Part shown: positions 28,952 through 61,237 of the stretch, one piece after another
Layout of the letters: every line of letters starts with the position of its first letter
Position numbering within the stretch: the first letter of the stretch is position 1
From: a virus
Lineage: Duplodnaviria > Heunggongvirae > Uroviricota > Caudoviricetes
Virus record (IMG/VR): IMGVR_UViG_3300014205_000001
Coordinates: 253,413 to 317,412 of that record
Reading direction: 5' to 3' (one strand)
DNA length: 64,000 bases
The notes under the pieces: generated by a model
Seen by the model: the letters and a program-made list of their open reading frames with translations, nothing else
Database searches by the model: none
What the model was told of the DNA's origin: nothing
Made by a program: the position numbers and the translations under genes

Positions 28952-29911
28952 ATGAAAAAATCAATCTATCTTATACTCTTCGTACTTATAAGTACTATGA
29001 GTTTTTCACAAACGTTTGTTTCAGTTGAAGGAAGTAAATATCAACTGTTAACAGCAACTAATCCAAGTGCACACGATACAATTATCACTGAAACATCCAA
29101 TTCCTATATTACATTCAGTGTAACTTTACCGGCAAATACTCAATATTCAATAAGTATTGGTGCTAATCTTATCCGAACAAAAACTTCAACAGGTGCTTCA
29201 AATGATACTATTAAAATCAAAGCCAAACCTGAATTAAGTTATTCATGGAATGTTAGTAACAATTTCCATTATCGAATTTACACAAGTAACGTGACAATCG
29301 GTCATTTTAGGGTGAAAAATAAAATAAATTTTTTAAATGTAAATTCCGGAATTTCTGGCAATACTATAAATTTCACACTTGATACTTTAAAAGGTTTGAA
29401 TTATCATATTAACAATTCAATATCGAAAAGTATTTATGAATATTCTTTTTCACAAACATCAACTCCGCCATTAAATGCTACGAATTTATCTACTCTTGTT
29501 GTTGGTCCTTTATCCATGCCAATTACTTCAAGCGGTACATATTATTTACATATTCGTGGTTACAGTTATTATCTTGATCCGAATGAAACTAATTTTGGTT
29601 TAACATTTACAGGTTGGATAACATATTCAGTAGCTGCAACCTATACACAAAGCACAGTTGGAATTTCTGAAAACACATTAAGTAATTTTAAGGTATATCC
29701 AAATCCAGCTAAGGACTTTATTACAGTGCAATACACATCAGCCAATAACATTGAAAATGTGTCACTATATAATATTGCCGGTCAGGAAATGACAACTCAG
29801 GCAGTCGAATCTATGGGTGATAACAAGGTAACCTTTAATTTGGAATCCTATCCACAAGGTATCTACTTTGCAAGGATTGGTTCAAGTACTTATAAATTCA
29901 TCAAACAATAA
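28952..29911 (+). CDS. secreted protein with type IX secretion system C-terminal sorting domain
   Basis: N-terminal signal peptide MKKSIYLILFVLISTMSFSQ. C-terminal ~80 aa (KVYPNPAKDFITVQ ... NIAGQEMTT ... GIYFARIG) match the Por_Secre_tail CTD pattern of Bacteroidetes. Confidence 0.75.
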   Translation: MKKSIYLILFVLISTMSFSQTFVSVEGSKYQLLTATNPSAHDTIITETSNSYITFSVTLPANTQYSISIGANLIRTKTSTGASNDTIKIKAKPELSYSWNVSNNFHYRIYTSNVTIGHFRVKNKINFLNVNSGISGNTINFTLDTLKGLNYHINNSISKSIYEYSFSQTSTPPLNATNLSTLVVGPLSMPITSSGTYYLHIRGYSYYLDPNETNFGLTFTGWITYSVAATYTQSTVGISENTLSNFKVYPNPAKDFITVQYTSANNIENVSLYNIAGQEMTTQAVESMGDNKVTFNLESYPQGIYFARIGSSTYKFIKQ

Positions 29912-42811: not shown

Positions 42812-43348
42812 GTGCTTCAAATAGAAACTATATTAGAATTTGACCCACCTCACTTAATTAAAAAACATGAAGTGCAAGGTGAATGGAAGAAAACAGCCAT
42901 TTGCAATGTAGGTGACGATATTGACCAATACTATTCTTGGTTTTTAAAGAAACGTTTTAATCTCAGTTTAATTAAACCGATGCGTGGCAGTCATATTACT
43001 ATCATTAATGATAAGTTGTACGACGAGCAAAAATATCTGCAAGCCAAACAAATATTTAATGGTAAAAAAATAGTATTTGATTACGACCCTGCTGAAATAC
43101 GTGGTGGTATTAATCCTAAAGGTGAAGGTTTTTGGTGGCTGAAAGTATATAATACTGACATCGAAGCAATTCGTGAATTTGCAGGTTTGAATCGCAAACC
43201 TTTTTTTAACTTACATTTAACTTTGGGTGCTGTTCAACAAGAATGGAAAAAAGGAATTAAAAATGGTCCGCCACCTTTAGAAGATATTCAAATACATCAA
43301 TTACATTCGGAATATATTGTCCGTCAAATGATAAAATTCGGTTTATGA
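42812..43348 (+). CDS. hypothetical protein
   Basis: 178-aa ORF, GTG start. Confidence 0.45.
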   Translation: MLQIETILEFDPPHLIKKHEVQGEWKKTAICNVGDDIDQYYSWFLKKRFNLSLIKPMRGSHITIINDKLYDEQKYLQAKQIFNGKKIVFDYDPAEIRGGINPKGEGFWWLKVYNTDIEAIREFAGLNRKPFFNLHLTLGAVQQEWKKGIKNGPPPLEDIQIHQLHSEYIVRQMIKFGL

Positions 43349-49250: not shown

Positions 49251-49330
49251 GGAAGGTAGCGTACAAGGTGTACATCCCGCCTTGAAAGCGGGCGCGGTCT
49301 AACGACAGGGTTCGATTCCTATATCTTCCG
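49251..49330 (+). tRNA. atypical tRNA-like element (anticodon loop CTTGAAA gives UGA/Ser-type; weak T-stem)
   Basis: 7-bp acceptor GGAAGGT/ATCTTCC, D-arm GTAC/GTAC, perfect anticodon arm CCCGC-CTTGAAA-GCGGG, T-loop GTTCGATTC. Only 3 T-stem pairs. Confidence 0.35.
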
Positions 49331-49335
49331 CATTT

Positions 49336-49410
49336 GGTCCTTTAGTTTAATGGACAGAGCATGGGGATTCTACCCCCAGAGTGAGGGTTCGATTCCTTCA
49401 AGGACTACCA
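49336..49410 (+). tRNA. tRNA-Arg (anticodon TCT), CCA encoded
   Basis: Acceptor GGTCCTT/AAGGACT, anticodon arm TGGGG-ATTCTAC-CCCCA, T-arm GAGGG-TTCGATT-CCTTC, ends ACCA. Confidence 0.85.
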
Positions 49411-49507
49411 AATAAATAAGGAAGATCGACTCATCAGGCGATGGGAGTAGTTTGCTAAACTATCTGTGCATGAATTTGCACACGGGTCGGGACCGTGGTT
49501 TTCCTCT

Positions 49508-49582
49508 GCCTCTGTAGCTCAATTGGATTAGAGCACTCGCCTACGAAGCGAGAGGTTGCGCGTTCGAATCGCGTCAGAGGTA
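49508..49582 (+). tRNA. tRNA-Arg (anticodon ACG)
   Basis: Acceptor GCCTCTG/CAGAGGT, D-arm GCTC..GAGC, anticodon arm CTCGC-CTACGAA-GCGAG (identical loop to E. coli Arg-ACG), T-arm GCGCG-TTCGAAT-CGCGT. Confidence 0.85.
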
Positions 49583-49662
49583 CAGGAATATAATATGAGT
49601 TCGAGTCTCAGCAACGGAGATAGCTACCGTTAGAAGCATTTATGGTGATGCAGTTCCACTAT

Positions 49663-49735
49663 GCCTTCATAGTTCAATGGATTAGAATGTCGCGCTTCGG
49701 ACGCGATGATGTGGGTTCGAATCCTACTGAGGGTA
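49663..49735 (+). tRNA. tRNA-Arg (anticodon TCG)
   Basis: Acceptor GCCTTCA/TGAGGGT, anticodon arm TCGCG-CTTCGGA-CGCGA, T-arm GTGGG-TTCGAAT-CCTAC. Confidence 0.8.
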
Positions 49736-49745
49736 CTTTAAATTA

Positions 49746-54831: not shown

Positions 54832-55038
54832 ATGAAAACATACATTTTCGGTAATAAAGAAATTTTCAATAAAATATACGAACAATTCTTTGCAATGCGT
54901 ATCTTTCATCGTACTGATGAACATGGTCAAATTTTAATGAAATTTGCAACCAAAGGAATTGAAAAGGAATTAATGAAAATGAATTTCATCAAGGAACAAT
55001 TAACAGAATTTAAAGAAATTAAAAAAGATGAAAAATAG
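54832..55038 (+). CDS. hypothetical small protein
   Basis: 68-aa ORF directly after sigma gene. Confidence 0.35.
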   Translation: MKTYIFGNKEIFNKIYEQFFAMRIFHRTDEHGQILMKFATKGIEKELMKMNFIKEQLTEFKEIKKDEK

Positions 55039-55453
55039 AATTGTAATTATATTACGTGGAGTACCAGGAAACGGCAAAACGACTTTTGCAAAATTTTTAG
55101 AATTTATTTGTGACATCAGTGATATGACTTTCACTTTGTGTTGTGCAGATGAATGGTTTGAAGATGAAAAAGGTAACTATAACTTCAAAATGGAAGAACT
55201 GGGTAAAGCACACGCCTGGTGTAAAAATCAATTTAAAACATCATTGGATGGTTTAGTTGATGTTATTGTAGTTGCGAATACTAATGTTCGTACTGACGAT
55301 GTAAAAATGTATCGTAATTTAGCGATTGAAGCTGATTATCGTGTTTTTGTATTGACAGTTGAAAATTGGCACGAAGGTATCGATGTACATAACGTACCGA
55401 ACGATGTAAAAGAAAAAATGAAAAAAACTTTGTTATCAACAATTCGTCTGTAA
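55028..55453 (+). CDS. P-loop NTPase / small kinase (AAA_33- or dNMP-kinase-like)
   Basis: N-terminal IVIILRGVPGNGKTTFA Walker A within 15 residues of start. 141 aa. Confidence 0.5.
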   Translation: MKNRIVIILRGVPGNGKTTFAKFLEFICDISDMTFTLCCADEWFEDEKGNYNFKMEELGKAHAWCKNQFKTSLDGLVDVIVVANTNVRTDDVKMYRNLAIEADYRVFVLTVENWHEGIDVHNVPNDVKEKMKKTLLSTIRL

Positions 55454-56179: not shown

Positions 56180-56812
56180 ATGAAACAAATTTTAATTTAT
56201 TGGTTTTGGTACTGGAAGTATCGTTACCATATTTGGAAAGATCGTAACAATTACGCTAAAAAATATCCTAATCATACAAACGTTGCATTTTATGATGCAA
56301 TGCGTTGGGCATTGGATATACATCATAACGTACGTCAAAGATATGACAAAATTTATCCCTATTTCTTTCACTTGAATGAAGTAAGTAAAGTTGCTATTAT
56401 GTTTCGACATTTAGTAAATGGTAATCCTTTGACTTTTTTAATTGCATTGTTTCACGATGTAATTGAAGATGCAAGGTTGACTTATAACGATGTGAAAGAT
56501 GCATGGGGAAAAGAAGTTGCAGATGGTGTATATGCATGTACTGAATTAAGGGGTAGAAACAGAAGTGAACGTCATGGTCCTGAATATTTTAAGGAATTAA
56601 AATTAAATATGTTAGGACGTTTTGTAAAGATATGTGATGTGATTGCTAATATGGAACGTGGATTAAAAACAGGTTCTTCAATGTTAGATAAATATGTGAA
56701 GGAATATCCTCACTTTAAAGAAGAACTTTATTGTGAAGAATATAAAACAATGTTCACGTATATTGAAGAAGTAATCATCAAAAAATATCACGAAAAGAAA
56801 GCTGCAAAATAA
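56180..56812 (+). CDS. HD-domain hydrolase resembling SpoT/Mesh1-type (p)ppGpp hydrolases
   Basis: YFFHLNEVSKVA (H..EV motif) followed by LFHDVIEDARLT, matching the HDVVEDT box of RelA/SpoT HD domains. Confidence 0.5.
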   Translation: MKQILIYWFWYWKYRYHIWKDRNNYAKKYPNHTNVAFYDAMRWALDIHHNVRQRYDKIYPYFFHLNEVSKVAIMFRHLVNGNPLTFLIALFHDVIEDARLTYNDVKDAWGKEVADGVYACTELRGRNRSERHGPEYFKELKLNMLGRFVKICDVIANMERGLKTGSSMLDKYVKEYPHFKEELYCEEYKTMFTYIEEVIIKKYHEKKAAK

Positions 56813-56813
56813 T

Positions 56814-57209
56814 ATGGAAGAAAAATTTATCCCTAAATCATTAGACGAAGCAGTCGAGTATTTAGTAAAACAAAACGACGAAAAAACATTAGCTGAAATC
56901 AAAAGCATGAATGAAAGACAATTCATGTCAGCAGTTCATCACGGTATGGGAACTGCAATTCGCAATGAATGGAATCTATGGTGGCATGGAATTAAAGGCA
57001 TCGAAGGTGTTCCTAAAGAAAAACCTGAACTGATTGCTGAATTTGAAAAGTTAGGTATTCTGCATGGTGACGATATTTCAGGAATAATTTTAACTTCGAC
57101 TTATCGACAAATTAAAGGTTTAGATCGTGATTTACAAAATCAAATTAAAGAATATCACGATCATTGGAAAGAAAACGGTTTTGCGGATGGTATTTTCAGA
57201 ACAAATTAA
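56814..57209 (+). CDS. hypothetical protein
   Basis: 131-aa ORF. Confidence 0.4.
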   Translation: MEEKFIPKSLDEAVEYLVKQNDEKTLAEIKSMNERQFMSAVHHGMGTAIRNEWNLWWHGIKGIEGVPKEKPELIAEFEKLGILHGDDISGIILTSTYRQIKGLDRDLQNQIKEYHDHWKENGFADGIFRTN

Positions 57210-58342: not shown

Positions 58343-58677
58343 TGAAAAAGTTTTTGCAAATATTAAGTTCAATAATGTTGATCTTAAATCCAACTTGTGG
58401 TTTAATGATTGTTGCAAGTATTATACATAGTTGTAAAACAGGAACATATTGGTGGATTATCGCGATAGCATTTTCGTTTGTTATTGTGTATTTTGTTTTA
58501 AAATTCAATGCTTATATGTATCGTGATGAAAACAAAAAACGATACACTGAATATTTGAAATGGAAAGCAAAATTCAGTTTAACACACGATTTAATACAAG
58601 AATATTGTACTGATTATGGCGGTGCTGATTATCAATTATGGCGGAATAAATTAACTGGTAAATACATAGAAATATAA
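58342..58677 (+). CDS. small membrane protein
   Basis: Two hydrophobic helices in N-terminal 60 aa. Confidence 0.4.
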   Translation: MKKFLQILSSIMLILNPTCGLMIVASIIHSCKTGTYWWIIAIAFSFVIVYFVLKFNAYMYRDENKKRYTEYLKWKAKFSLTHDLIQEYCTDYGGADYQLWRNKLTGKYIEI

Positions 58678-59489
58678 TGAATATACATTTTACAGATAAA
58701 GACTTCTTTGAAGATTTAAAAGCTGCAACTCTCGCTAAAGTAAGAGTAGGTTCTCATTTATATGGGACTAATAACGAAAATTCTGATGAAGATTTTCTGT
58801 ATATTTATGCTACATCTAAAGCAGAATTAGGCAGTGTATTTTCAACGAATCATCAATTACAATACAAAGAAAACAATATTGATCATAATTTTGTTTCGTT
58901 ACATCAATTCATTAAGAATTGTATTAACGGTGATAGTCCCATTAATTTTGAAGTAATTCAATCAGATGAATTAGTGGGAAGCGATGTAGAATTTTTAACA
59001 GTACATCAGGATTATTTTCGCACCTATGCAATTATTCGTAGCTATAATGGTTTGGTAAAACGCGACATCAAACATTACAATAAAGCAACTACGGATTATG
59101 AAAAACGTAAACGATTAGGTCATATTGTTCGTGGCATATTGTATACACATTTGTTATTGGATAATAACTTTAATTTCAAACAAGCAAATTTATCCTTTAT
59201 CCAAACACAGCAAAAATATGCTGAATTAGACCTCGACCCAAGAATTGTGAATCCTGAACTACAACGTTTAAATTCCATTGCTGAAGAACAGCGTAAATTG
59301 CTGAATGAAAAATTAGACAACGGCACGTTGGGTTATGCAAAAACAATGGATGTTAAAGGTGGTGTGATAATTACCCAGGATTTACAGCATCTAATGAACT
59401 CTTTATTCTTTCAGGTAAAACAGGACAAGTTAAAGAATTTCGATCTGTCTTATTTCATAAAAGCCTTCGAAAACTGGGTCCAATATTAA
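58677..59489 (+). CDS. Pol-beta-superfamily nucleotidyltransferase (RlaP/PF10127-like)
   Basis: VRVGSHLYGTNNENSDEDFLYIY carries the GS-x9-SDxD NTase signature near the N-terminus. 270 aa. Confidence 0.6.
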   Translation: MNIHFTDKDFFEDLKAATLAKVRVGSHLYGTNNENSDEDFLYIYATSKAELGSVFSTNHQLQYKENNIDHNFVSLHQFIKNCINGDSPINFEVIQSDELVGSDVEFLTVHQDYFRTYAIIRSYNGLVKRDIKHYNKATTDYEKRKRLGHIVRGILYTHLLLDNNFNFKQANLSFIQTQQKYAELDLDPRIVNPELQRLNSIAEEQRKLLNEKLDNGTLGYAKTMDVKGGVIITQDLQHLMNSLFFQVKQDKLKNFDLSYFIKAFENWVQY

Positions 59490-59498
59490 ATTTTAAAG

Positions 59499-59510
59499 CA
59501 TATAATTGTA
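59499..59510 (+). promoter_or_regulatory. conserved motif CATATAATTGTA (copy 6)
   Basis: TATAAT 6 nt before ATG 59513. Confidence 0.5.
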
Positions 59511-59512
59511 TC

Positions 59513-60079
59513 ATGTTAAGAATTAAAGACTGTAAACCTGAAGTAGGCACTTTTGGAAGTGCTGAAGAATTTCCAGTATTGGAATGTATTATCGATCAAG
59601 TTAAATTATTAGAAGTGAAACATCGAATTGCTGTATGTCGGACTTTAAATAAAGTAAATGATCTTGTCGCATTATGTAACAAAATACCTAATGTGCAATT
59701 TCGGATGAATGTGAAACGTAAATTTGAAAAAGAATTACGTGAATCTATTCGTAAGGATTTCAGTTCGATTAATAATAAAATGGCAACTCACATGGAAAAC
59801 TTTGTGCATGCAAAGTTCAATAGCCGTGACGAATTAAAACAACATATTCAAGATTTGAAAAACGATAAATTACGGCAACAGAAACAATCCGCAATTAAAG
59901 ATGTAAAGTTACCTAAATTTTACATTTTTGGTAGTAAATCTTCACAAGATTACGATGTGATTTGTTTTCCTGAGGCTTTACTTAGTATTGCATATAACGC
60001 ACAACTTTGTAAAAATACGAATATGTATTGGAAGATTTGTTTGAACGTGAATCGATGCCTAAAAAGAAAATCAATGTGA
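59513..60079 (+). CDS. hypothetical protein with second GS...DxD-like motif
   Basis: YIFGSKSSQDYDVICF near C-terminus. 188 aa. Confidence 0.45.
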   Translation: MLRIKDCKPEVGTFGSAEEFPVLECIIDQVKLLEVKHRIAVCRTLNKVNDLVALCNKIPNVQFRMNVKRKFEKELRESIRKDFSSINNKMATHMENFVHAKFNSRDELKQHIQDLKNDKLRQQKQSAIKDVKLPKFYIFGSKSSQDYDVICFPEALLSIAYNAQLCKNTNMYWKICLNVNRCLKRKSM

Positions 60080-60660
60080 ATTTAGGTTTTGTGATTGATA
60101 ATAGTATCGGTCATGTTCATAAAGGAACATTTGATGAAGTACATAATAGTGTAATGTGTACATATAAAAATCATAAACAGTTTCACCCATTAACATTACA
60201 ACACTATTATATTCGTGGTGGTGGTGAAAATCAATATACTCATTTAAAAATCAAACGTTGTTTAAGATTTATATTATCTTTCTTTTCTCGTGTTCCTGAA
60301 TTACGCCCATTTGTTAAACCAGCACTTAAAGGTAACATAAATATGAGATTAGATGCTTTGTGTAAAATTGATTTAACAAAACATATAAATTTTGAAGGTA
60401 AGAAAGAAAAGGTGGAAGATATTTATAAAGTGTTAGCCTTTCAATTAGCACAGACACATTTATTAATTCAACGTACTGAAATCTTTTCTAAAGAAGAAGC
60501 AATTAATCATTGCCCAGAATTTACACATGCTTTAAAACGTGAACCTTTAACTTTTTATGATTTGGAAGCATTACAGGAATCATTAACAATGTTGATTGTT
60601 AATACAAAAAATTTAATTCCTAAAATGGAGTCATTAGATGAACCCATTTTCAATACATAA
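60055..60660 (+). CDS. hypothetical protein
   Basis: Track ORF starts at TTG 60028. First ATG is 60055. Overlaps upstream gene by 25 nt in another frame. Confidence 0.4.
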   Translation: MPKKKINVNLGFVIDNSIGHVHKGTFDEVHNSVMCTYKNHKQFHPLTLQHYYIRGGGENQYTHLKIKRCLRFILSFFSRVPELRPFVKPALKGNINMRLDALCKIDLTKHINFEGKKEKVEDIYKVLAFQLAQTHLLIQRTEIFSKEEAINHCPEFTHALKREPLTFYDLEALQESLTMLIVNTKNLIPKMESLDEPIFNT

Positions 60661-60679
60661 GGTTATTACGTTAAAATTA

Positions 60680-60706
60680 AAAGGACAGCTTATTTGCTGT
60701 CCTTTT
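60680..60706. terminator. bidirectional terminator hairpin between convergent genes
   Basis: aaaggacagc / gctgtccttt stem flanked by A- and T-tracts. Confidence 0.6.
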
Positions 60707-60709
60707 CAG

Positions 60710-61237
60710 TTATATATCGAATTTACCTTCTAAATCTCTTGCTAAAATAATGTTTTCAATTAATTGGGGTAAAATTATTTCCGTCACACCCAATACATAC
60801 ACATAAAAATCATATTCTTCAATAGCGTTGAAAGGTAATGCAGCTGGTTGGACGGGTGCAGCAGGTTCAATTGGTGGATTTCCAATTGGAGGTTCGTTTG
60901 AATTATATTCAGTTAATAAAATATTATATGTAATCATATTTTGATTATAGATTGCTAATAAATTATTGTAATTATCAATCAATTTTTTAGCAGCTACAAA
61001 CTGTGTAGTTTCTTGAGTTGTTAATAATCTACCTGTTGGTAAAATTACTAATGAATCAGAAGCTGTTAATGCGCGTTGATAACTAACAATACGCGCATTA
61101 TTAACTTTGTTGTTGTTTACATCGTAGTGTTCAATTGTACACATAATTACAATTTTACGTTGGCTTTGTAACCAATAAAAATCATAAGTTAATTTACGTT
61201 GTAAATCTGTAATAGGGCAATTTGATATTGTGATCAT
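60710..61237 (-). CDS. hypothetical protein (tail-fibre associated?)
   Basis: 175-aa ORF downstream of long fibre-like gene. Confidence 0.45.
   Translation of the reverse strand: MITISNCPITDLQRKLTYDFYWLQSQRKIVIMCTIEHYDVNNNKVNNARIVSYQRALTASDSLVILPTGRLLTTQETTQFVAAKKLIDNYNNLLAIYNQNMITYNILLTEYNSNEPPIGNPPIEPAAPVQPAALPFNAIEEYDFYVYVLGVTEIILPQLIENIILARDLEGKFDI

What the first reader, a model, noticed from the sequence alone, without database searches (positions are those of the whole stretch)
58677..60660. Three-gene module led by an RlaP-like nucleotidyltransferase, driven by the conserved promoter motif
ORF 58677-59489 carries the Pol-beta NTase signature GS-x9-SDxD (VRVGSHLYGTNNENSDEDFLYIY). The next ORF, preceded by its own copy of the 12-mer promoter, has a second GS...DYD-like stretch (YIFGSKSSQDYDVICF). 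It overlaps out of frame with a third ORF (60055-60660).

Small NTases in phages include anti-defence and signalling enzymes (nucleotide-second-messenger synthases or sponges, MNT-type antitoxins). The pairing of two NTase-like proteins with an overlapping partner is not a described arrangement that I recognise.
Basis: inference. Interest (0 to 1): 0.6.

Follow-up and report, generated by a model that had tools for sequence, protein, structure and literature searches.

The report
Two phage nucleotidyltransferases, one gene frameshifted
This is two genes rather than three in a 391-kb phage genome: a known RNA-repair enzyme (RlaP) followed by a second, unclassified enzyme of the same broad fold whose gene is split here by a one-base deletion, so most of it is ordinary.

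Summary

- **ORF1 (58677-59489)** is a real RlaP/PF10127 nucleotidyltransferase. This family is known, was recently shown to add 1-2 nucleotides to RNA 3'-OH ends, and is described as the most prevalent RNA-repair NTase of jumbo phages.
- **ORF2 (59513-60079) and the overlapping "third ORF" (frame open 60013-60660)** are one gene. It is split by a one-base deletion in a homopolymer: A5 at 60011-60015, where two relatives have A6 and a third has AAAAAG. The repaired 382-aa protein matches intact 382-413-aa homologues end to end.
- **The "partner" ORF** is the rest of this enzyme (two core strands plus the helical domain), not a HEPN or nuclease protein.
- **This second protein ("NT2")** belongs to a large phage family: 895 representatives at 50% identity, with no Pfam, PHROG or NCBIfam model. 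It has an invariant FGS-x4-DxD motif and a confident model whose best structural matches are ANT(3'')(9), AAD(9) and HalB.
- **Its context points to RNA-end repair, not nucleotide signalling:** RlaP next door, a PNK-like kinase nearby, an Rnl1 RNA ligase 8 kb downstream, and one homologue fused to a PNK-type phosphatase.
- **The 12-mer motif** precedes only NT2, not ORF1.

The parts
58677..59489 (+). RlaP-family (PF10127) Pol-beta-type nucleotidyltransferase, 270 aa. Motif G25 S26 ... D37 x D39, with a further invariant D69. N-terminal NTase domain plus C-terminal helical domain. The start overlaps the stop of the upstream ORF (TAATG).
59498..59510 (+). Copy of the recurrent motif GCATATAATTGTA (contains TATAAT), 2 nt upstream of the ATG of the second gene. 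Probably a phage promoter -10 element giving a leaderless or near-leaderless transcript.
   Evidence: 14 matches at up to 2 mismatches against 6.2 expected; 0 of 100 shuffles reach 14. The 7 copies with at most 1 mismatch are all on the + strand. A start codon follows 1-3 nt after the motif in 5 of 7 copies, and one copy precedes the tRNA cluster. The motif is conserved at the same place in L001, L003 and L004. Promoter function was not tested.
59513..60013 (+). 5' part of the NT2 gene (codons 1-167). Encodes the clade-specific N-terminal helical extension (about aa 1-130), then strands beta1-beta2 of the NTase core with F139-G140-S141-x4-D146-x-D148. As assembled, this frame runs on to a stop at 60077-60079 and adds 21 out-of-frame residues.
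   Evidence: Full-length homologues. AF2 model of P0001 (85% identical): helices 22-130, strands 136-139 and 146-151.
60011..60015 (+). Frameshift site: an A5 run where intact relatives have A6 (L001, L002, L003) or AAAAAG (L004). One base is missing, so the reading frame shifts by -1 relative to the rest of the gene.
   Evidence: DNA alignment and codon comparison. The same split products (188 aa plus 210/201 aa) are on record from JGI, ENA and Logan assemblies of the ~391-kb contig.
60013..60660 (+). [quoted passage not shown] Invariant residues: N188, N190, K204, G205, E209, N212, H221, Q223, R249, R252, K297 and others. It was listed as a separate ORF starting at 60028 (TTG) or 60055 (ATG).
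   Evidence: hmmsearch with the family HMM gives 294.7 bits on this frame. No further stops or indels, and dN/dS against L001 = 0.18.
60675..60711 (.). Strong hairpin (AAAAGGACAGC-TTATTT-GCTGTCCTTTT) between the convergent NT2 gene and the leftward gene 60710-61237. Probably a bidirectional terminator that closes the rightward gene block.
   Evidence: Sequence. RNA fold -17.9 kcal/mol, z = -5.3, with 0 of 200 shuffles folding as well.

Best explanation
The locus holds two adjacent nucleotidyltransferase genes at the end of a rightward block of non-structural genes in a ~391-kb phage genome.

**Gene 1 (58677-59489)** is an RlaP-family enzyme. [quoted passage not shown] This would restore nucleotides removed by host anticodon nucleases before an RNA ligase reseals the tRNA.

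**Gene 2 ('NT2', 59513-60660)** is a single gene for a 382-aa protein. It has an N-terminal helical extension plus a ~250-aa Pol-beta-fold NTase with a helical C-terminal domain. It belongs to a large, unnamed family of large-phage proteins. In this assembly the gene is broken by loss of one A from an A6 run. As written it yields a 188-aa fragment, and possibly a 201-aa fragment, that are most likely inactive. The cause is either a very recent inactivating mutation or a consensus error.

**Inferred, not shown:** intact NT2 enzymes also act on polynucleotide (RNA) 3' ends. They would work in the same end-healing and sealing pathway as RlaP, the PNK-like kinase (55028-55453) and the Rnl1-type ligase 8 kb downstream.
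For: **Shown: one gene, frameshifted.**
- The fusion matches full-length homologues, and the alignment is continuous across the junction.
- The window has A5 where relatives have A6.
- Five related contigs carry an intact 382-413-aa gene directly after a 267-276-aa RlaP gene.

**Shown: ORF1 is RlaP.**
- Pfam score above the gathering cut-off, phrog_388, and homologues pre-annotated PF10127.
- A distant tblastn match to T4-like NrdC.11, which PMC12776372 places in PF10127.
- RlaP activity (1-2 NMP added to RNA 3'-OH; DNA and proteins not used as acceptors) comes from PMC12776372.
- PMC7824862 states that it is the most prevalent such NTase in jumbo phages and that its distribution mirrors RNA ligases.

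**Shown: NT2 has an NTase fold.**
- AF2 pLDDT 94.
- The leading Foldseek hits are almost all NTases.
- FGS...DxD is conserved in at least 90% of 64 sequences.

**Supports an RNA-end role for NT2 (inference).**
- An RlaP gene is adjacent in 5 of 20 non-redundant loci (L001, L003, L004, L005, L014) and 3.4 kb away in a sixth (L016).
- A PNK-like AAA_33 kinase lies within 5 kb in 8 of 20 loci.
- Homologue P0300 is fused to a PNK-type HAD phosphatase with a DIDGT motif (phrog_415 4e-19).
- An Rnl1-type RNA ligase (PF09511; phrog_562 2e-40) lies 8.2 kb downstream in the same contig.
Against: - No sequence or profile similarity links NT2 to RlaP (hhalign probability 0.7%).
- Adjacency to RlaP is confined to one syntenic phage lineage, so it is weak as independent evidence. 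14 of 20 non-redundant loci have no RlaP within 6 kb. By tblastn, Lak phages and Bacillus phage G have NT2 but no close RlaP.
- The strand where NTases carry the third carboxylate has invariant N188 and N190 instead.
- The fusion evidence is a single protein.
- Raw reads were not available, so an assembly or consensus error cannot be separated from a real mutation.
Confidence: 0.6

Rival explanations
1. The NT2 gene is expressed in this phage by programmed -1 ribosomal frameshifting or transcriptional slippage at the A run. The split would then be regulatory, giving a short and a long product.
For: A -1 shift on the A5 run (60011-60015) restores the full-length frame exactly. The downstream frame shows no further damage. 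The same A5 appears in three assemblies.
Against: Relatives encode the protein in a single frame, with A6 or AAAAAG, so the shift is not a conserved feature. T-AAA-AAT is not a canonical X-XXY-YYZ slippery heptamer. A5 is far shorter than the runs known to support transcriptional slippage (established knowledge). The three assemblies probably derive from the same sample.
Confidence: 0.05
2. The pair is an anti-defence or signalling device. One or both NTases would make, mimic or destroy nucleotide second messengers (CBASS, Pycsar, Thoeris or Hailong-type), or would AMPylate host HEPN toxins as MNT antitoxins do.
Against: No CD-NTase, SMODS, MNT or PADLOC model is hit. Foldseek E-values are 0.05 or worse. 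The supposed partner ORF is part of NT2. RlaP enzymes tested in vitro use RNA 3'-OH as acceptor, not proteins (PMC12776372). The context genes (PNK-like kinase, Rnl1 ligase, PNK-type phosphatase fusion) point to RNA ends.
Confidence: 0.12
3. NT2 is a catalytically inactive NTase-like scaffold (a pseudo-enzyme) that binds RNA or nucleotides, or partners with RlaP.
For: The spacing is an unusually short GS-x4-DxD. Asn188 and Asn190 replace an acidic residue on the strand that usually carries the third carboxylate. No known NTase profile detects the family.
Against: G140, S141, D146 and D148 are at least 90% conserved across 64 sequences that average 26% column identity, along with many polar residues (K204, D208, E209, H221, R249, R252). 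This pattern is typical of an active site. The family occurs alone in most genomes.
Confidence: 0.1

Closest known systems
[quoted passage not shown]
   Same: ORF1 scores above the Pfam gathering cut-off. It has the GS...DxD motif plus a third invariant Asp, and an NTase domain followed by a helical domain with a terminal helix. It lies in a large phage that also encodes an Rnl1-type RNA ligase and a PNK-like kinase.
   Different: Only residues 18-163 align to the Pfam model, so the C-terminal half is divergent. The ligase is 9.4 kb away and separated by leftward genes, one of which carries a Laminin_G_3 domain, so the two are not in one operon. Activity was not tested.
ANT(3'')(9)/AadA and AAD(9) aminoglycoside adenylyltransferases (PDB 7uy4, 6sxj)
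   Different: Identity is 11-12% and there is no sequence-level relationship. NT2 has a shorter GS-to-DxD spacing, an NxN strand, and in this clade a 130-aa N-terminal helical extension. An antibiotic substrate is implausible for a phage gene.
HalB of the Hailong defence system (PDB 9dbh)
   Different: Foldseek E = 0.05 and TM 0.2-0.4. There is no HalA-like partner and no sequence similarity.
T4 polynucleotide kinase/phosphatase and Rnl1 tRNA-repair pathway
   Same: The same genome region has a PNK-kinase-like P-loop protein (phrog_505 1.8e-6), and the contig has an Rnl1 homologue (phrog_562 2e-40). One NT2 homologue is fused to a PNK-type HAD phosphatase.
   Different: T4 has no NT2 homologue detectable by tblastn. 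No role for a second NTase in this pathway has been described.

Membership tests
RlaP / PF10127 (for ORF1) | Match to the Pfam PF10127 model above its gathering score | tested here: met
   35.9 bits against a cut-off of 23, E = 8.3e-9, residues 18-163. Most of the 160 homologues are pre-annotated PF10127.
RlaP / PF10127 (for ORF1) | Three strictly conserved aspartates in the NTase domain (PMC12776372) | tested here: met
   D37, D39 and D69 are invariant in 41 homologues. D86 and D130 are invariant too. Which Asp is the third catalytic one is inferred from its position on strand 68-74.
RlaP / PF10127 (for ORF1) | N-terminal NTase domain, C-terminal helical domain, and a terminal helix that packs back on the NTase domain | tested here: inconclusive
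RlaP / PF10127 (for ORF1) | Genomic association with an RNA ligase | tested here: met
   A PF09511 Rnl1-type ligase lies in the same contig at window-equivalent 68859-69962, 9.4 kb from the end of ORF1. The association is loose: the two are not in one operon.
RlaP / PF10127 (for ORF1) | Adds 1-2 NMP to RNA 3'-OH | not testable with these tools
   Needs biochemistry.
RlaP / PF10127 (for NT2) | Sequence or profile similarity to PF10127 | tested here: not met
   No PF10127 hit for the fusion or for any of 64 members. hhalign of the NT2 family against the ORF1 family gives probability 0.7%.
Pol-beta-fold nucleotidyltransferase superfamily (for NT2) | hG[GS] ... [DE]h[DE]h motif on strands beta1-beta2 | tested here: met
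   F139-G140-S141-x4-D146-Y-D148 is invariant or at least 90% conserved. It lies on strands 136-139 and 146-151 of the model. The 4-residue spacing is shorter than the usual 9-13.
Pol-beta-fold nucleotidyltransferase superfamily (for NT2) | Third acidic residue on the neighbouring strand | tested here: inconclusive
   Strand 186-195 carries invariant N188 and N190, not D or E. D208 (at least 90% conserved) and E209 (invariant) follow strand 198-202. The geometry could not be checked.
Pol-beta-fold nucleotidyltransferase superfamily (for NT2) | Structural similarity to solved NTases | tested here: met
CD-NTase / SMODS (CBASS-type signalling synthases) | Match to CD-NTase/SMODS profiles or a cGAS-like fold as best hit | tested here: not met
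   No Pfam or PADLOC hit. CdnC appears only at Foldseek E = 0.18 and TM 0.2.
MNT-HEPN toxin-antitoxin | A small (~120-140 aa) MNT protein with an adjacent separate HEPN RNase gene carrying Rx4-6H | tested here: not met
   The adjacent 'partner' ORF is the rest of NT2. Both proteins are 270-382 aa with the helical domain fused on. MNT hits are only local, over 73-80 residues. An Rx4-6H motif was not searched for.

The most novel reading that the evidence does not exclude
NT2 defines a new, large family of phage Pol-beta-fold nucleotidyltransferases: 895 clusters at 50% identity, absent from Pfam, PHROGs and NCBIfam. Its active site is atypical (GS-x4-DxD plus NxN). It would perform a step in RNA-end repair not yet described, for example adding nucleotides to healed 3' ends alongside PNK, RlaP and Rnl1, or it would have a different counter-defence chemistry. 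In this phage lineage it has gained an N-terminal helical domain and become fixed next to RlaP.
Probability: 0.3. Interest if true: 0.55.

Novelty: new member of a known kind. Interest (0 to 1): 0.3.

Why it matters
ORF1 adds nothing new. RlaP in jumbo phages is already described, and the family now has biochemistry.

The useful results are two:
- **An annotation correction.** Two called ORFs are one frameshifted gene, so the "overlapping partner" disappears.
- **An unnamed enzyme family.** The second gene belongs to a large family of large-phage NTase-fold proteins. Members occur in Lak phages, Bacillus phage G, Salicola phage SCTP-2 and hundreds of metagenomic clusters. Its context ties it loosely to RNA-end healing genes.

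If NT2 is an RNA 3'-end enzyme, it would add a component to phage tRNA-repair counter-defence. It would be a straightforward target for biochemistry, using an intact homologue such as P0001 rather than this frameshifted copy.

Tried and rejected
- **blastn of the module against 50,697 phage records:** no match.
- **Separate Pfam and PHROG scans of ORF2 and ORF3:** noise only. This prompted the frameshift test.
- **A second possible junction at the A5 run 60061-60065:** I built this fusion and rejected it, because homologues read 'CKKYEYVLEDLFE...PKKK' through the first junction.
- **PDB sequence searches for both proteins:** nothing below E = 0.27.
- **Pfam scan of all 64 NT2 members at E up to 1, looking for a recurrent weak family:** noise only; Polbeta PF18765 in 2 of 64 members at 0.051.
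- **NCBIfam and PADLOC:** nothing for either NTase.
- **hhalign of the two families, testing for paralogy:** negative.
- **afdb50 fold library:** unavailable.
- **Whether T4-like phages pair NrdC.11 with an NT2-like gene (RB49 locus):** nothing in the annotation suggests one. The locus itself was not scanned with the NT2 profile.
- **Annotated neighbourhoods of Bacillus phage G gp208 and SCTP-2 gp171:** uninformative.
- **Generic sigma-70 promoter scan:** at chance level, 48 found against 49 expected. The terminator scan missed the 60675-60711 hairpin, which I folded separately.
- **Rfam on the whole window:** tRNAs only, nothing in the module.
- **The original 2016 paper that defined RlaP:** not in the library. 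I cite it only through PMC7824862 and PMC12776372.
Full report
**1. What is in the sequence**

The window is ~30% G+C, densely coded phage DNA. It corresponds to positions 81658-145657 of a 390,959-bp metagenomic contig. That contig encodes a DNA polymerase B, ribonucleotide reductase, its own sigma factor, four tRNAs and a T4 gp13-like protein. The region has no nucleotide-level match among 50,697 phage records.

Both quoted peptide motifs are present.

**2. ORF1 is an RlaP enzyme**

- ORF1 scores 35.9 bits on Pfam PF10127 (RlaP; gathering cut-off 23) and 6e-17 on phrog_388 'nucleotidyltransferase'.
- It has 160 detectable homologues. Most are pre-annotated PF10127, and many lie on contigs of 390-600 kb.
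- G25, S26, D37, D39 and D69 are invariant.
- The AlphaFold model is confident (pLDDT 94.2): an N-terminal alpha/beta NTase domain followed by a helical domain.
- By tblastn it is distantly related to NrdC.11 of T4-like phages. A 2025 preprint places T4 NrdC.11 in PF10127 (PMC12776372).
- That preprint shows that two bacterial RlaP enzymes add one or two NMPs to RNA 3'-OH ends. They prefer cleaved-tRNA mimics and do not use DNA or protein as acceptors.
- A survey of 224 jumbo phages calls RlaP the most prevalent RNA-end-restoring NTase of such phages and says its distribution mirrors RNA ligases (PMC7824862).

ORF1 is therefore a new member of a known and expected family.

**3. ORF2 and ORF3 are one gene**

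Scanned separately, the two ORFs hit nothing. The ORF3 frame is open from 60013, just after an A5 run at 60011-60015. Re-reading one A joins the frames as '...AQLCK|KYEYVLEDLFERESMPKKKINVNLG...'.

- This 382-aa fusion matches P0001 (382 aa) at 85% identity over 100% of its length, E = 5.5e-214. It also matches 384-413-aa proteins P0002-P0004 and P0007.
- The alignment runs without a break through the junction.
- At the DNA level the window reads TGT-AAAAA-TAC. L001 and L002 read TGT-AAAAAA-TAC, L003 also has A6, and L004 has AAAAAG.
- The window has therefore lost one base from a homopolymer.
- The same split products are on record from JGI, ENA and Logan assemblies of the ~391-kb contig. So A5 is the consensus of that dataset, but the three are probably not independent samples.
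- Downstream of the shift there are no further stops or indels, and dN/dS against L001 is 0.18 (0.22 upstream of the shift; 0.10 for ORF1).
- The lesion is thus either very recent or an error.
- Programmed frameshifting is unlikely. Relatives are in frame, T-AAA-AAT is not a canonical slippery heptamer, and A5 is too short for transcriptional slippage.

**4. What the second protein (NT2) is**

- Most homologues are ~250 aa and match only residues ~135-382. The N-terminal ~130-aa helical extension is specific to this phage clade.
- An exhaustive profile search finds 895 cluster representatives at 50% identity with E up to 1e-3, and 323 with E up to 1e-30.
- tblastn finds members in Lak megaphages, Bacillus phage G (gp208), Salicola phage SCTP-2 (gp171) and a 636-kb uncultured phage. 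All are unannotated.
- No Pfam, NCBIfam, PHROG or PADLOC model detects the family, and no PDB sequence does either.
- The AlphaFold model of P0001 is confident (pLDDT 94, pTM 0.82). It shows helices 22-130, then strand 136-139, strand 146-151, helix 159-179, strands 186-195 and 198-202, then a helical domain.
- The conserved F139-G140-S141-x4-D146-x-D148 sits on the first two strands, as in Pol-beta-fold NTases.
- The leading Foldseek hits are almost all NTases (HalB, AAD(9), ANT(3'')(9), CdnC, OAS, MNT) but weak, at E 0.05 or worse.
- ORF1 has the same nearest two-domain relatives. Yet the two families share no detectable profile similarity.

There are two oddities. The GS-to-DxD spacing is very short. 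The strand that normally carries the third carboxylate has invariant N188 and N190. D208 and E209 may substitute, but I could not inspect coordinates.

**5. Context and likely function**

- In L001-L005 an RlaP gene (267-276 aa) directly precedes an intact long NT2.
- In L014 a 250-aa NT2 overlaps the end of an RlaP gene. In L016 RlaP lies 3.4 kb away.
- L001, L003, L004 and L014 also share the upstream sigma factor, AAA_33 kinase and HD_4 genes, and L005 shares the last two. So all five are one lineage and the adjacency is not independent evidence.
- The other 14 of 20 non-redundant loci have no RlaP within 6 kb.
- The most recurrent neighbour across lineages is a PNK-like P-loop kinase (AAA_33), within 5 kb in 8 of 20 loci. 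Scores against phrog_505 'polynucleotide kinase' are 1.8e-6 for the window copy and 4.4e-13 for the L019 copy.
- One family member, P0300, is fused to a HAD phosphatase with a DIDGT motif. It matches PNK phosphatase profiles: phrog_415 4e-19, phrog_505 2.5e-11 and PF25109 HAD_PNKP 2.2e-5.
- In this contig an Rnl1-type RNA ligase (PF09511; phrog_562 2.3e-40) lies at window-equivalent 68859-69962, 8.2 kb past NT2.
- A borderline 2H phosphoesterase is at 42812-43348.

Together these favour a role for NT2 at polynucleotide 3' ends in RNA repair. I rate this at about 0.35-0.45. It is an inference from context, not a demonstration.

Signalling or MNT-type roles cannot be excluded, but they have no positive support beyond generic fold resemblance.

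**6. The promoter motif**

- GCATATAATTGTA occurs 14 times at up to 2 mismatches, against 6.2 expected, and no shuffle reached 14.
- The seven copies with at most 1 mismatch are all on the + strand and intergenic.
- In five of them a start codon follows after 1-3 nt. One precedes the tRNA cluster and one precedes the sigma-factor gene.
- If TATAAT is a -10 element, the expected transcription start for the 59498 copy is the A of the ATG at 59513. That implies a leaderless mRNA. This is inference.
- The motif is conserved at the same place in L001, L003 and L004.
- It precedes only NT2. ORF1 is joined to the upstream ORF by a TAATG overlap, and no copy lies between 53904 and 59498.
- A strong hairpin at 60675-60711 closes the block.

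**7. Verdict**

ORF1 is already known biology. NT2 is an unnamed member of a known superfamily and a modest lead, though the copy in this window is broken. I set interest at 0.3.

Noticed in passing
window 56180-56812 and 56814-57209: A 210-aa protein consisting of a SpoT/RelA-type HD hydrolase domain alone (phrog_990 5e-27; TIGR00691 4.6e-7; PF13328 HD_4 in homologues). It is followed directly by a DUF6794 protein (1e-21) in the window, L001 and L003. In L004 and L005 another gene lies between them, and L014 was not checked for DUF6794. It looks like a phage small-alarmone hydrolase with a fixed partner.
   Followed up: partly
window 4559, 41452, 42798, 47680, 49041, 53892, 59498 (+ strand): The motif GCATATAATTGTA recurs with a start codon 1-3 nt downstream in 5 of 7 copies. 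One copy lies before the tRNA cluster and one before the phage sigma-factor gene. This suggests a phage promoter class that produces leaderless mRNAs.
   Followed up: partly
L029 3497-4600 (window-equivalent 68859-69962, beyond the window end): A T4 Rnl1/gp63-type RNA ligase (PF09511; phrog_562 2e-40). Next to it are an R2K ATP-grasp protein and a small protein with a weak Val_tRNA-synt_C hit.
   Followed up: partly
window 55028-55453: A 141-aa P-loop kinase-like protein (AAA_33 at 26.9 bits, just under the cut-off of 27; phrog_2071 4e-30; phrog_505 polynucleotide kinase 1.8e-6). Homologues lie within 5 kb of NT2 genes in 8 of 20 non-redundant loci.
   Followed up: partly
protein P0300 (metagenomic homologue of NT2): The NT2 domain (residues 33-264) is fused to a PNK-type HAD phosphatase with a DIDGT motif. 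Another homologue, P0334, has an unassigned 320-aa N-terminal domain.
   Followed up: partly
window 42812-43348: A 178-aa protein with a borderline 2H-SAK phosphoesterase match (27.1 bits, cut-off 27). It is preceded by a copy of the promoter-like motif and starts with GTG one base after it.
   Followed up: no
window 28952-29911: The product carries a Por_Secre_tail (type IX secretion sorting) domain according to precomputed Pfam hits. This hints at a Bacteroidota host.
   Followed up: no
window 49251-49736: A tRNA cluster (Ser-TGA, Arg-TCT, Arg-ACG, Arg-TCG) with 79-97-nt spacers richer in G+C. The spacer at 49584-49662 contains a T-arm-like GAGTTCGAGTCTC, but neither ARAGORN nor Rfam calls a tRNA there.
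   Followed up: partly
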